The notes below the pieces were generated by a model that saw only the letters and a program-made list of their open reading frames with translations, was not told where the DNA came from and made no database searches. The translations under genes and the position numbers were made by a program. A stretch of 29,370 bases of DNA from Promethearchaeia archaeon (lineage in GTDB: Archaea > Asgardarchaeota > Lokiarchaeia > Sigyniarchaeales > SOKP01), in assembly GCA_029856155.1 (NCBI GenBank), contig JAHQWL010000064.1:1-29370 (forward strand), read 5' to 3'. Below are positions 1,287 through 3,471 of the stretch, one piece after another (the stretch's first letter is position 1; each line of letters opens with the position of its first letter).

Positions 1287-2939
1287 TTACGTAATTTTAA
1301 ATCCTTTAAATAATTTCAATAAGAATGTTATTTCTTCAGAGCTTTCTATTAACCTTCTTAAATTATAGGGGAAAACATCTAATGCTACTTCTTTCCCTTC
1401 GGAAACTTGTTCAATCATTATTCTTATAATTTCTTTGTATTTTCTAACTGTGTTTCCTTCAGTTTCAATTTCAGAGATAACTTCCCATGCTTTTTCTAAT
1501 TTTCCGTTTAATATACAGGAGATAGAAGCGAGGACATAGCTTTGAACTATATGAGAATGACCAATTTTTTTAAGGTTAGCAGCTCTATAATAGTAGCGAT
1601 AAAGATTATTAACCATTTCTCTCAAAAGAAAATCCTTGGCTATATCCAATTGTTCATAAAATTTTATGCTTTCTAAAATAAGAGTTGCAGCAGTAAAAAA
1701 TTGCTTATTTTTTAATCCTTCTTTAGCAATTTTATTTAATCCTCTAATTATTTGATTAAAAATCCCAAATCTGTTAAATTCTAATTCACCTTCGATAGCG
1801 ATATCATATGCGTTTAAATAACTCTCTGTGGACTCGTTTATACTCCCAATTTTCCAAAAATTATCTCCTGCTTTAACATAATGTTTATAAGCCATTTCAA
1901 AGTTTTTCAATTCTTTAAATACGTTAGCAGCATCAACAAGATTTATCGCAGCTTGGTTAAAATCCTCAATTTTTTCTGAAAAATTTCCAGCTAATATAAA
2001 ACAAGAAGCACATTCAATTAAATTATTTTGAATGTCTTGATAACATAACCCGGCACCTCGGTAATATCGCGCAATTTTATGATAGTTTTCTTTATTTTTT
2101 TCTATAGTTTCTGCTAAATCTATATATGCTCCAGCTTCTTTCTTGGAGAAAATAGTATATTGATCTGCTTTATCCAAAATGCTATAGAGATTCTTTAATA
2201 TCTGATATATTTGAGCTAAAGTTAAACCATCGCTTTTTTCTTCATATTGAGTTGCTAAATTTGAGAAATGTTCTACACCATCCAAAATAATATCTTGAGA
2301 TTTGTTATAATCATCGATTTCCTCATAACAAGATCCTATTTGTTGATAAGAGAAGGAAAGCATATCAAAATAATTATGAAGTTTTGAAATTTTGATAACT
2401 TTCTCATAGTATTTTATAGCATTCATATAATCTGAAAATTTTAAAAATAATTCTGCTATATTTTGATAATTCTGGGCAAGTTTTCTGGTTTCATTAAATT
2501 CTTTTAAAAGTTTACTTTCTTGTTTTAGAAATTTGATACTGTTTAAAATATTCTTTTTTTCAGCTTGTAAATCTACTATTTTCTCATGATAAATATCTGC
2601 TATTCGTAAGTATAACTCAGCAATTTCATGTAATTTCGCTTGAAGCTTATAATCAATAATTAATTTTTTATAGAGTTCAATAATTTGGTTGTATAATTTG
2701 AGTGCTTCGGCAAAATTTAGGTTTTCCATGATTTCAGCTACAGAAAAAAGAAACTCTCCTGCTTCAAAATATTCTCCAGATTCAGTAATTTCTTTAGAGA
2801 AATTAATCGCTCCTGAAATCATTTCTCGTATTGTCTTTTCTTTCTCTATTGGATCAGTTAATTGCTGAATTTTAGATTCATATTGTCTTATTTTATCTAA
2901 ATACTCTGTATAATCGATGAATTCATCTTCTTCAATAAT
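1287..2939 (-). CDS. Alpha-helical TPR/SNAP (soluble NSF attachment protein)-like repeat protein
   Basis: Repeated helical units such as AELYLRIADIY, ARYYRGAGLCY, ASCFILAG, AYKHYVKAGDNF. The ORF track starts at ATG 2822, but the frame is open to 2951 and a GAGGAG SD precedes ATT at 2939. Confidence 0.7.
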   Translation of the reverse strand: MIEEDEFIDYTEYLDKIRQYESKIQQLTDPIEKEKTIREMISGAINFSKEITESGEYFEAGEFLFSVAEIMENLNFAEALKLYNQIIELYKKLIIDYKLQAKLHEIAELYLRIADIYHEKIVDLQAEKKNILNSIKFLKQESKLLKEFNETRKLAQNYQNIAELFLKFSDYMNAIKYYEKVIKISKLHNYFDMLSFSYQQIGSCYEEIDDYNKSQDIILDGVEHFSNLATQYEEKSDGLTLAQIYQILKNLYSILDKADQYTIFSKKEAGAYIDLAETIEKNKENYHKIARYYRGAGLCYQDIQNNLIECASCFILAGNFSEKIEDFNQAAINLVDAANVFKELKNFEMAYKHYVKAGDNFWKIGSINESTESYLNAYDIAIEGELEFNRFGIFNQIIRGLNKIAKEGLKNKQFFTAATLILESIKFYEQLDIAKDFLLREMVNNLYRYYYRAANLKKIGHSHIVQSYVLASISCILNGKLEKAWEVISEIETEGNTVRKYKEIIRIMIEQVSEGKEVALDVFPYNLRRLIESSEEITFLLKLFKGFKIT

Positions 2940-3190
2940 TTTATAATCTCCTCAAATTAAGTAAAGCCTATTTATAGAAAGTAATGTAAAAATAAAAAAA
3001 ATTGGTTTTTGTTTAAAACCCATACTTTATCTATTCAGTTTTCCTATAAATAAAAAGCTATATAGAAAAACTTAAATTAATGCCATAACTACTTCAAAAA
3101 CAAAAATTCACAGCATTCTGAAACGAATATATCTAAAGAAATAATATTAAATACGATAACGTGTATATTAATAATAATAATAAAATGTAG

Positions 3191-3436
3191 GTGATTGTTA
3201 TAAAACAAGTTTCTGAATTATTAGATACTGGTCTGTATGAAACCTTCAAACCAGAAAAAACAATGACCGTGGCTGACCTATTACAAGAACTCAACTTGGA
3301 AAATAAATATTTTGGAATCTTGGTGAATGGGAAAAAGGCTACACCAGATACAGTTATCACTGAGCAATCAGAAGTGGTTATCCTTCCCCATAGCTTCGCT
3401 TAATTAAAGTGGAGCGGGGAGATCGCTGGAGGATAA
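3191..3436 (+). CDS. ThiS/MoaD/SAMP/Urm1-type ubiquitin-like (beta-grasp) protein, split by a putative 30-nt intron; exons 3191-3391 and 3422-3436; spliced product of 71 aa ends …VVILPHIAGG
   Basis: TVADLLQEL, ILVNGK and D-V-I…V-ILP are ThiS/MoaD hallmarks. The expected IAGG* is encoded in frame at 3422-3436, after the insert. Confidence 0.85.
3392..3421 (+). other. Putative archaeal bulge-helix-bulge/loop (BHB/BHL) mRNA intron, 30 nt
   Basis: CCCC(3386-89) pairs with GGGG(3416-19) as a 4-bp central helix. Bulges are AUA(3390-92) and AGA(3420-22). Intron stem is 9 bp (3393-3401/3407-3415). Outer exon stem is 10 bp (3376-85/3429-38). Confidence 0.8.
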
Positions 3437-3471
3437 CCTCAAATATAGTTTTTTTGATTCTTTTTATTTTT

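What the first reader, a model, noticed from the sequence alone, without database searches (positions are those of the whole stretch)
3376..3438. Putative BHB/BHL mRNA intron gating the C-terminal diglycine of a ubiquitin-like (ThiS/MoaD/SAMP/Urm1) protein
Seen in sequence: the beta-grasp ORF appears to end abnormally (…ILPH-SFA*), but the missing family terminus ATC GCT GGA GGA TAA (IAGG*) lies in the same frame exactly 30 nt later. The insert AGCTTCGCTTAATTAAAGTGGAGCGGGGAG (3392-3421, 15/30 GC) folds as a 9-bp intron hairpin (3393-3401/3407-3415) with the premature UAA at its apex. It is flanked by a 3-nt bulge AUA (3390-92), a 4-bp helix CCCC/GGGG (3386-89/3416-19), AGA (3420-22) opening a larger loop, and a 10-bp exon-exon stem GGUUAUCCUU/GAGGAUAACC (3376-85/3429-38) that extends past the real stop. 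Established: archaeal EndA cuts after the second nucleotide of each bulge in BHB motifs; relaxed BHL motifs are cut by broader-specificity EndA types; cbf5 mRNA introns in crenarchaea are the classic protein-gene example. Applying that rule gives cuts after 3391 and 3421, the exact junction yielding …LPH|IAGG. Inference: this is an endonuclease/ligase-spliced mRNA intron in an Asgard-type archaeon that ordinary gene callers would miss or call a pseudogene.
Basis: partly seen in the sequence, partly recalled or inferred. Interest (0 to 1): 0.95.

Follow-up and report, generated by a model that had tools for sequence, protein, structure and literature searches.

The report
tRNA-type mini-intron in Asgard ubiquitin-like gene
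A small ubiquitin-like gene of an Asgard (Promethearchaeota) archaeon is interrupted, four codons before its end, by a 30-base insert shaped like the introns archaea cut out of tRNAs, so its mRNA very probably has to be cut and rejoined before the protein gets the two final glycines it needs to work.

Summary
The ThiS/SAMP-type ORF (3191-3403) ends ...ILPHSFA*, and IAGG* lies in the same frame exactly 30 nt later.

Comparative evidence strongly supports the intron reading:
- About 115 orthologues in the same family and 20 outside it read ...P-x|IAGG with no insert, at exactly the junction the cleavage rule predicts.
- Eight genomes and one metagenome contig carry a 30-nt insert at that codon boundary.
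- Their helices co-vary: 11 of 23 pairs changed on both sides, 90% paired against about 50% in slid controls.
- The four codons after the insert change only synonymously.
- The insert is single-copy in this genome.
- The host has a crenarchaeal-type alpha/beta splicing endonuclease and RtcB.

The motif is relaxed: the 5' bulge is 3 nt, but the 3' site sits in a 9-nt loop.

No RNA data exist, so splicing is inferred, and the proposed "gating" role is untested.

In print, such introns in coding sequence are known only for cbf5. This scan has already reported similar mini-introns in other Asgard genomes and in this one; I verified two here. Presence is patchy (at least 6 gains or losses). One allele shows the intron arriving as a 52-nt cassette.

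The parts
3191..3391 (+). Exon 1 of the ThiS/SAMP-type ubiquitin-like gene (67 codons from GTG 3191; translation may really start at ATA 3200 behind the GGTGAT at 3190-3195)
   Evidence: Pfam ThiS 32 bits, above the 22.5 cut-off, matching profile positions 12-71 of 76 only; orthologues in 124 of 135 family genomes
3392..3421 (+). 30-nt BHB-type mini-intron (third bulge base + 9-bp stem + 5-nt loop + 9-bp stem + 4-nt helix strand + 2 bases of the 3' loop)
   Evidence: Absent at exactly this boundary in about 135 orthologues; present with co-varying helices in 8 alleles; single copy in the genome
3422..3436 (+). Exon 2: ATC GCT GGA GGA TAA = IAGG + stop
   Evidence: among the 8 intron alleles these four codons differ only at synonymous third positions; the intron-less orthologue matches the ThiS profile to its last position, 76/76
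3376..3385 (+). Outer exon-exon helix, 5' strand (codons V-I-L)
   Evidence: pairs with 3429-3438; 85% of cells paired over 8 alleles, 3 pairs changed on both sides
3429..3438 (+). Outer exon-exon helix, 3' strand (GG codons, stop codon, first 2 bases of the 3' UTR)
   Evidence: in G068, G009 and G095 the bases after the GG codons differ and restore pairing with their own exon 1
3386..3389 (+). Central 4-bp helix, exon strand CCCC (Pro codon + first base of His codon)
   Evidence: pairs with GGGG 3416-3419; CCUC/GAGG in G009 and the metagenome allele (pair 17/46)
3390..3392 (+). 5' bulge AUA; predicted cut between 3391 and 3392
   Evidence: rule 'between second and third bulge residue' from PMC2738675; the junction matches intron-less alleles
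3393..3415 (+). Intron hairpin: 9-bp stem (3393-3401/3407-3415) and loop AAUUA (3402-3406); in-frame TAA at 3401-3403
   Evidence: 7 of 9 stem pairs changed on both sides among 8 alleles, 93% of cells paired
3416..3419 (+). Central 4-bp helix, intron strand GGGG
3420..3428 (+). 3' loop of 9 unpaired nt (AGAUCGCUG) in place of a 3-nt bulge; predicted cut between 3421 and 3422
   Evidence: unpaired in every allele folded; the coding of I-A-G leaves these bases unable to pair with exon 1
3449..3455 (+). Run of 7 T shortly after the stop, a likely transcript end
   Evidence: sequence only; similar T runs follow the stop in intron-less orthologues; inference

Best explanation
The 30 nt at 3392-3421 are an archaeal bulge-helix-bulge-type intron in the mRNA of a ThiS/SAMP-family ubiquitin-like protein.

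The fold:
- The transcript forms an exon-exon stem and a 4-bp helix between the Pro/His codons and the intron's 3' end.
- It has a 3-nt 5' bulge, a 9-bp intron hairpin and a widened 3' loop.

The proposed reaction:
- The host's heterotetrameric alpha/beta splicing endonuclease cuts after the second base of the bulge (3391|3392) and at the symmetric place four base pairs away (3421|3422).
- RtcB joins the exons, giving ...ILPH-IAGG-stop.
- Unspliced mRNA can give only ...ILPHSFA, which lacks the diglycine that E1-type enzymes adenylate.

Shown here: the structure, its conservation by covariation, the exact junction, purifying selection on both exons, and the presence of the enzymes.

Inferred: the cleavage and ligation themselves, and which enzyme performs them.

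The intron is one of a set of stereotyped mini-introns of about 30 nt in protein genes of this genome. Within the family it has been gained or lost at least six times, and at least once it arrived as a DNA cassette with its exon flanks.
For: 1. Exact junction.
- 44 distinct intron-less alleles in the genus, about 70 more in the family and 20 in other families all read ...P-x|AT(C/T/A) GCN GGN GG with nothing in between.
- The BHB rule predicts just this junction.

2. Covariation over 8 alleles (7 species of the genus, one of another genus, one metagenome contig).
- 90.2% of cells are paired, against 46-57% when the partners are slid.
- 11 of 23 pairs changed on both sides (0 of 500 shuffles reach this).
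- The hairpin has 7 of 9 pairs co-varying.
- The central helix is CCCC/GGGG or CCUC/GAGG.
- Each allele folds on its own to the same topology.

3. Selection on the exons.
- Exon 2 (4 codons) shows only synonymous differences: ATC/ATA/ATT, GCT/GCA/GCG, GGA/GGT, GGA/GGG/GGC.
- Exon 1 differences between intron-bearing alleles are concentrated at third codon positions, for example 17 of 24 between G000 and G005.
- The peptide the insert would encode is not conserved.

4. Family fit. The ThiS profile is matched to its last position only in the insert-free form.

5. Copy number.
- The covariance model finds one copy only in the genome.
- The intron-bearing gene is the only copy in 7 of the 8 genomes that carry it.

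6. Enzymes.
- There are two EndA paralogues.
- The alpha one is closest to crenarchaeal heterotetramer catalytic subunits 3p1z_B, 3ajv_B and 2cv8, and aligns without a gap through the N-terminal loop region.
- PMC5829648 states that Asgard EndAs are (alpha-beta)2 with the L1 loop that gives broad specificity.
- RtcB is present.

7. Other examples in the same genome. Inserts of the same design restore long ORFs and family motifs: C44:81452-81481, and C98:57026-57055, which restores DKHSTGGVPGNK.
Against: - There is no RNA evidence of any kind.
- The 3' cleavage site lies in a 9-nt loop rather than a 3-nt bulge, so the motif is relaxed. It depends on the broad specificity that has been shown for crenarchaeal enzymes, not for this one.
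- In the G095 allele the central helix has a U-U mismatch, or folds in a shifted register with a 1-nt bulge.
- All inserts are exactly 30 nt and in frame with a single stop, which also leaves read-through formally possible.
- Translation is coupled to transcription in archaea, and ribosomes would melt the exon-exon stem, so the efficiency of splicing is unknown.
Confidence: 0.82

Rival explanations
1. The insert is a structured RNA element that is mostly not spliced. The gene's normal product would be the truncated ...ILPHSFA protein, or the element would act on mRNA stability or termination, and IAGG would be only a remnant.
For: No RNA data show splicing. The stem is followed by a T run. The truncated ORF is what gene callers report.
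Against: Exon 2 is kept in frame, exactly 30 nt away, with only synonymous changes in 8 diverged alleles. The C-terminal diglycine is invariant in about 135 orthologues. The geometry and cut rule of BHB introns fit to the base.
Confidence: 0.07
2. Translational recoding: the ribosome reads through the TAA, or hops over the 30 nt as in phage T4 gene 60, giving a protein that ends in IAGG without RNA splicing.
For: The insert is always 30 nt and in frame, with one stop inside a hairpin.
Against: There are no matching take-off and landing codons: CAU before the insert, GAG or GAA at its end. The stop is 3 codons after the would-be take-off in most alleles and 1 codon after in G095. The insert's peptide is not conserved (SFA*LKWSGE, RFF*FRKNEE, S*FYLKIGVE), while its RNA pairs co-vary. 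A read-through product would carry 10 extra residues that no orthologue has.
Confidence: 0.04
3. A dead or dying gene: an insertion scar (small palindromic element or duplication) has made a pseudogene.
For: There is a premature stop. The insert is patchily distributed, and one allele carries a duplicated C-terminal relic.
Against: The element is single-copy per genome. It has been retained across species whose third codon positions differ at 27-53% of sites, with exon 1 differences concentrated at third codon positions, exon 2 changing only synonymously, and compensatory changes in three helices. It is the only copy of a gene otherwise present in 124 of 135 genomes.
Confidence: 0.04

Closest known systems
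BHB intron of the cbf5 (pseudouridine synthase) pre-mRNA in Crenarchaeota (Watanabe 2002; Yoshinari 2006; Yokobori 2009, PMC2738675)
   Same: A short intron in a protein-coding mRNA. It often has a relaxed bulge-helix-bulge motif and is cut between the second and third bulge residues by a heterotetrameric EndA. Its distribution is patchy, with proposed gains and precise losses, and it encodes no homing endonuclease.
   Different: Different phylum (Asgard/Promethearchaeota) and different gene. This intron is only 30 nt, of a stereotyped design (9-bp stem, 5-nt loop), and lies 4 codons from the stop, so that it removes the functional C-terminus. The 3' site sits in a 9-nt loop. Splicing of cbf5 was shown by cDNA and in vitro cleavage; here it is not shown.
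BHB intron in the 5' UTR of Haloferax volcanii HVO_1309 mRNA (PMC7714728)
   Same: An EndA substrate in an mRNA outside tRNA and rRNA. That paper states that cbf5 was the only other mRNA case known in 2020.
   Different: That intron lies in the untranslated leader and does not change the protein. The enzyme is the homodimeric euryarchaeal type, and cleavage was shown in vitro.
Archaeal pre-tRNA introns at 37/38
   Same: Same geometry: the 5' exon strand of the 4-bp helix pairs with the 3' end of the intron, with a 3-nt bulge and cuts 4 bp apart. Presumably the same enzymes, EndA and RtcB. ARAGORN reports introns in 13 of the 27 tRNA genes it finds in this genome.
   Different: The substrate is an mRNA. 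There is no tRNA body, and the outer helix is made of coding sequence, the stop codon and 3' UTR.
HAC1/XBP1 unconventional cytoplasmic splicing in eukaryotes (IRE1 cut, tRNA ligase or RtcB join); from my own knowledge
   Same: A tiny intron near the 3' end of an ORF, defined by RNA hairpins, is removed by an endonuclease plus a tRNA-type ligase and swaps the protein's C-terminus.
   Different: The nuclease is IRE1, not the tRNA splicing endonuclease. That splicing is a proven stress-regulated switch; regulation here is only a conjecture.

Membership tests
Archaeal BHB/BHL intron (EndA substrate) | 4-bp central helix flanked by two 3-nt bulges on opposite strands, with flanking helices | tested here: inconclusive
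   The central 4-bp helix, the 3-nt 5' bulge, the inner hairpin and the outer helix are all present. The 3' bulge is 9 nt, not 3. This is a relaxed form, of the kind shown to be cut by crenarchaeal heterotetrameric EndA.
Archaeal BHB/BHL intron (EndA substrate) | Cuts between the second and third bulge residue give a functional joined RNA | tested here: met
   The predicted junction CAU|AUC equals the sequence of about 135 intron-less orthologues. It restores the ThiS profile to position 76/76.
Archaeal BHB/BHL intron (EndA substrate) | Helices maintained in evolution by compensatory change | tested here: met
   8 alleles, 11 of 23 pairs changed on both sides, 90% paired against about 50% in slid controls.
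Archaeal BHB/BHL intron (EndA substrate) | Host has a splicing endonuclease able to cut relaxed motifs, and an RNA ligase | tested here: met
   Alpha and beta EndA paralogues are present. Alpha is closest to A. pernix and S. tokodaii catalytic subunits, aligned without a gap through the loop region. RtcB is present. Broad specificity of this particular enzyme is inferred from PMC5829648, not tested.
Archaeal BHB/BHL intron (EndA substrate) | Spliced RNA and excised intron exist in the cell | not testable with these tools
   No listed sequencing run holding the locus is RNA.
ThiS/MoaD/SAMP/Urm1 ubiquitin-like proteins | Beta-grasp domain recognised by the family profile | tested here: met
   Pfam ThiS 32.1 bits (own ORF) and 38.2 bits (intron-less orthologue), cut-off 22.5. 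SAMP2 scores 21.5 and 18.5 bits, below its cut-off of 27. No sequence match to any solved structure.
ThiS/MoaD/SAMP/Urm1 ubiquitin-like proteins | C-terminal Gly-Gly | tested here: met
   Met only after removal of 3392-3421; the ORF as it stands ends in SFA. Four ThiF-family E1-like genes are in the genome; which one pairs with this protein is unknown.
Programmed translational bypass (T4 gene 60 type) | Matching take-off and landing codons around a hairpin, with a stop directly after take-off | tested here: not met
   CAU before the insert and GAG/GAA at its end. The stop is 3 codons later in most alleles and 1 codon later in G095.
Repeated small mobile element (MITE-like) | Many copies per genome | tested here: not met
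   The covariance model R1 finds only the UBL locus in G000; the next hit has E 9.8.

The most novel reading that the evidence does not exclude
The intron is not just tolerated. Because it masks the diglycine, splicing by the tRNA-splicing machinery would set how much conjugation- or sulfur-transfer-competent modifier the cell makes, a prokaryotic counterpart of XBP1/HAC1-type C-terminus switching. In a sister family the orthologous modifier is fused, like eukaryotic ubiquitin, to ribosomal protein S27a, so there the diglycine lies inside the fused reading frame.

In addition, these 30-nt introns would spread between species as DNA cassettes. Asgard archaea would then have a dynamic population of mRNA introns handled by enzymes that eukaryotes inherited.
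Probability: 0.15. Interest if true: 0.9.

Novelty: new member of a known kind. Interest (0 to 1): 0.72.

Why it matters
In the papers I could search, endonuclease-spliced introns inside archaeal coding sequence are reported for one gene only, cbf5 in Crenarchaeota. My searches combining Asgard or Lokiarchaeota terms with mRNA-intron terms found no report of such an intron.

This case has several implications:
- It places such an intron in the closest archaeal relatives of eukaryotes, in a ubiquitin-like modifier, at the one spot where it decides whether the protein has its reactive end.
- The gene as annotated (70 aa ending in SFA) is wrong, and gene callers will systematically truncate or split such genes.
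- Taken with the other mini-introns of the same design in this genome, it suggests that mRNA splicing by the tRNA machinery is routine in this lineage. That bears on how intron handling and RtcB-type mRNA ligation arose before eukaryotes.
- The cassette-insertion allele gives a rare direct view of how such an intron enters a gene.

Tried and rejected
- **RNA evidence.** The look-up of sequencing runs listed 20 holders, none on record as RNA, so expression and splicing could not be examined. The DNA contigs laid on the locus showed only that X1 covers the insert unchanged and that two other runs hold an intron-less relative.
- **Genome-wide structural scan of my own** for BHB-like inserts that join ORFs. 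It was not discriminating: 6356 structural hits against 4996 in shuffled sequence, and 53 ORF-joining hits against 50-64 with the 3' boundary shifted. It also missed a verified case with a weak outer helix, so I give no count of introns per genome.
- **cbf5 of this genome.** It is uninterrupted at 343 aa, so the classic intron is not present here.
- **Covariance-model hits.** The hit in G063 (E 0.06) is an AT-rich chance match. The hits in G012 and G074 are intron-less alleles matched on their exon parts.
- **'1 TAA inside' in G112 and G082.** This stop lies upstream of the real start and is not a second intron.
- **Homing endonuclease.** Nothing pointed to one: the 58-aa ORF downstream in the window matches no Pfam family, and the sequence downstream of the stop differs between intron-bearing alleles. 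I did not annotate the neighbouring genes at the other loci.
- **Solved structures.** No sequence match for the modifier.
- **Not used.** Structure prediction, complex prediction and the large protein searches were not needed.

Full report
**1. The observation**

The sequence is as described. The ORF from 3191 ends ...SEVVILPH-SFA-TAA at 3401-3403. Read on in the same frame, the sequence gives LKWSGE-IAGG-TAA. Deleting 3392-3421 therefore gives ...ILPHIAGG*.

- a 10-bp stem, 3376-85 with 3429-38;
- CCCC/GGGG, 3386-89 with 3416-19;
- a 3-nt bulge AUA;
- a 9-bp hairpin with loop AAUUA;
- 9 unpaired bases at 3420-28.

The energy is -31.5 kcal/mol, against -17.6 ± 3.1 for shuffles (z -4.46; no shuffle folds as well). 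The insert is 50% G+C in a genome of about 28%.

**2. What the gene is**

- The ORF matches Pfam ThiS (32 bits, cut-off 22.5), but only to profile position 71 of 76.
- An insert-free orthologue matches to 76/76, including the diglycine.
- SAMP2 is a weaker, sub-threshold match.
- The gene is alone between a TPR/SNAP-like gene on the other strand and a small unknown ORF.
- The genome has four ThiF-family E1-like genes.

**3. Relatives**

The window is contig 64 of a 4.1-Mb, 97%-complete MAG. Its relatives are named Promethearchaeota, that is Asgard.

The gene is found in 124 of 135 genomes of the family. I read the 3' end of every one I could fetch:
- About 115 alleles read ...P-(H/N/Y/F) | AT(C/T/A) GCN GGN GGN with nothing between.
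- So do 20 orthologues from other families of the order and class, as ...ILP(K/R/L/M)IAGG.
- Eight genomes carry a 30-nt insert at exactly the same codon boundary: G000, G005, G027, G023, G018, G009 and G068 in the genus, and G095 in another genus.
- So do two metagenome contigs.

[quoted passage not shown] It is therefore exactly the junction of the natural insert-free genes.

**4. Structure is what is conserved**

- 90.2% of cells are standard pairs, against 46-57% when the 3' partners are slid by 1-3 columns.
- 11 of 23 pairs changed on both sides, which no shuffle out of 500 reaches.
- The hairpin has 7 of 9 co-varying pairs. For example, GCUUCGCUU/AAGUGGAGC becomes GCUUAUCUU/AAGAUAAGC, GAUUUUUCU/AGAAAAAAC or GCUAAUUUU/AAAAUUGGC.
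- The central helix is CCCC/GGGG, or CCUC/GAGG. So the third base of the proline codon co-varies with an intron base.
- The outer helix co-varies too. In G068, G009 and G095 the bases after the GG codons (GGGUAAUAA; GGAUCAUAA, adding a Ser codon; GGCGAUUUC, adding Asp-Phe) differ so as to pair with that allele's own exon 1.

Each allele, folded alone, gives the same topology.

The peptide the insert would encode is not conserved. By contrast, the four codons after it differ only synonymously (ATC/ATA/ATT, GCT/GCA/GCG, GGA/GGT, GGA/GGG/GGC). This shows that exon 2 is translated in that frame. Exon 1 differences are also concentrated at third codon positions; for example, G000 and G005 differ at 24 of 192 sites, 17 of them third positions.

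**5. Not a repeat, not an artefact, not a spare copy**

- The covariance model built from the alleles finds only this locus in the genome.
- The insert is present unchanged in independent contigs and in MAGs from several projects.
- In seven of the eight intron-bearing genomes the interrupted gene is the only copy. G027, a fragmented bin, has one copy of each kind.

**6. The machinery**

- The genome has two EndA paralogues of about 200 aa. One keeps the Tyr/His/Lys catalytic residues by eye; the other lacks the His.
- The catalytic one is closest to the catalytic subunits of the crenarchaeal heterotetramers (3p1z_B, 3ajv_B, 2cv8_A) and aligns without a gap through the N-terminal loop region.
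- Kaneta et al. 2018 report that Asgard archaea have (alpha-beta)2 EndA with the L1 loop. They also report that only loop-bearing enzymes cut relaxed motifs.
- RtcB is present.
- ARAGORN finds only 27 tRNA genes and reports introns in 13 of them. This is consistent with heavy use of this pathway.

**7. How relaxed the motif is**

The 5' half is canonical. The 3' site lies after the second base of a 9-nt loop, four base pairs from the 5' site.

The loop cannot be closed to 3 nt. The bases that follow must encode Ile-Ala-Gly, so they cannot pair with the Ile-Leu codons opposite. The outer helix is made instead from the GG codons, the stop and the 3' UTR.

In G095 the central helix has a U-U mismatch or a shifted register. 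That allele may be a poorer substrate.

**8. Part of a larger set**

Notes from this scan list many candidate BHB introns in protein genes of this same genome, and checked cases in other Asgard genomes.
- C44:81452-81481 is a fully canonical hBHBh' (11-bp outer stem, ACGU/GCGU, 3-nt bulges, 9-bp stem, 5-nt loop). It joins open frames of 166 and 303 codons.
- C98:57026-57055 has the same 30-nt design and restores DKHSTGGVPGNK in an AMP-phosphorylase-like gene, joining 178 and 337 codons.
- C29:23943-23973 separates GKTILFGE from HFVVYG.

The UBL intron therefore shares its build (1 + 9 + 5 + 9 + 4 + 2 nt) with others in the genome. My own attempt at a genome-wide count failed (see Tried and rejected).

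**9. History**

On a maximum-likelihood tree of exon 1 (51 in-genus alleles, 4 outgroups), the intron needs at least 6 changes. Well-supported branches force at least 4. Each intron allele sits beside intron-less sisters.

Intron divergence is decoupled from exon divergence:
- G068 against the metagenome allele: 12% at third positions, 33% in the intron.
- G000 against G023: 34% at third positions, 10% in the intron.

The metagenome allele L104 shows one route of gain. It equals an intron-less allele plus 52 nt inserted, made up of ACCTCAT, the intron, and ATTGCGGGAGGATAA. The old end of the gene (TCCCCAC ATA GCA GGC GGA TTT TAG) is left as a relic after the new stop. The intron thus arrived as DNA together with its exon flanks. 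This points to recombination with another species' allele rather than reverse splicing. Precise losses are also likely, as proposed for cbf5.

**10. Comparison with what is known**

The mechanism proposed is that of the cbf5 mRNA intron. Haloferax HVO_1309 has one in its 5' UTR, and that paper states cbf5 was the only other case. Searches for Asgard or Lokiarchaeota mRNA introns, or for introns in ubiquitin-like genes, returned nothing relevant.

This is therefore a new member of a known kind, in a new phylum and a new gene, not a new mechanism. This scan has found the kind before on other Asgard DNA.

**11. What remains open**

- Whether and how efficiently the RNA is spliced.
- Whether the truncated protein is made.
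- Whether splicing is regulated.

The 'gate' idea rests only on the position of the intron. It also rests on a parallel in a sister family, where the orthologous modifier is fused after IAGG to ribosomal protein S27a. There the diglycine lies inside the fused reading frame.

**Verdict**

Direct RNA proof is missing.

Noticed in passing
L044 130-531 (+) = G037:C14:45499-45900; also G040:C284:6077-6256 and G044:C1:1867993-1868172: In a sister family of the order, the orthologous ubiquitin-like gene runs on in frame after ...ILPRIAGG into a ribosomal protein S27a/eS31 zinc ribbon (Pfam PF01599, 66 bits). This is the same arrangement as eukaryotic ubiquitin-S27a. Only one review in the library mentions Asgard together with S27a fusion, and I did not read it.
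   Followed up: partly
G000 C44:81452-81481, C98:57026-57055, C29:23943-23973: Other 30-31-nt BHB-type inserts occur in protein genes of the same genome. One is a fully canonical hBHBh' joining 166 and 303 codons. One is in an AMP-phosphorylase-like gene and restores DKHSTGGVPGNK. One is in mevalonate kinase between GKTILFGE and HFVVYG. The first two share the build of 9-bp stem plus 5-nt loop.
   Followed up: partly
L104 6325-6400 (Ga0114925_10000256): This intron-bearing allele equals an intron-less allele plus a 52-nt cassette (7 nt of exon, the intron, 15 nt of exon with stop). The old C-terminal coding end is left as a relic after the new stop, a footprint of intron gain at the DNA level.
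   Followed up: yes
G000, whole genome: ARAGORN finds only 27 tRNA genes in a 97%-complete genome and reports anticodon-loop introns in 13 of them. Many tRNAs are probably interrupted at non-canonical positions and escape detection.
   Followed up: no
window 3190-3202; L143 and L153 (G112, G082): The modifier gene may start at ATA (3200) behind a GGTGAT Shine-Dalgarno-like site rather than at GTG 3191. In two relatives a TAA lies directly upstream of the conserved ATA-AAA-CAA, and G095 has ATG at that codon.
   Followed up: no
window 1287-2822 (-): A 511-aa TPR protein matches the eukaryotic-type SNAP (soluble NSF attachment protein) family, PF14938, at 50 bits.
   Followed up: no
G027 C140:60-257 and C603:1708-1905: One fragmented MAG (820 contigs, 5% contamination) holds both an intron-bearing and an intron-less copy of the gene. 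This is probably two strains binned together.
   Followed up: no
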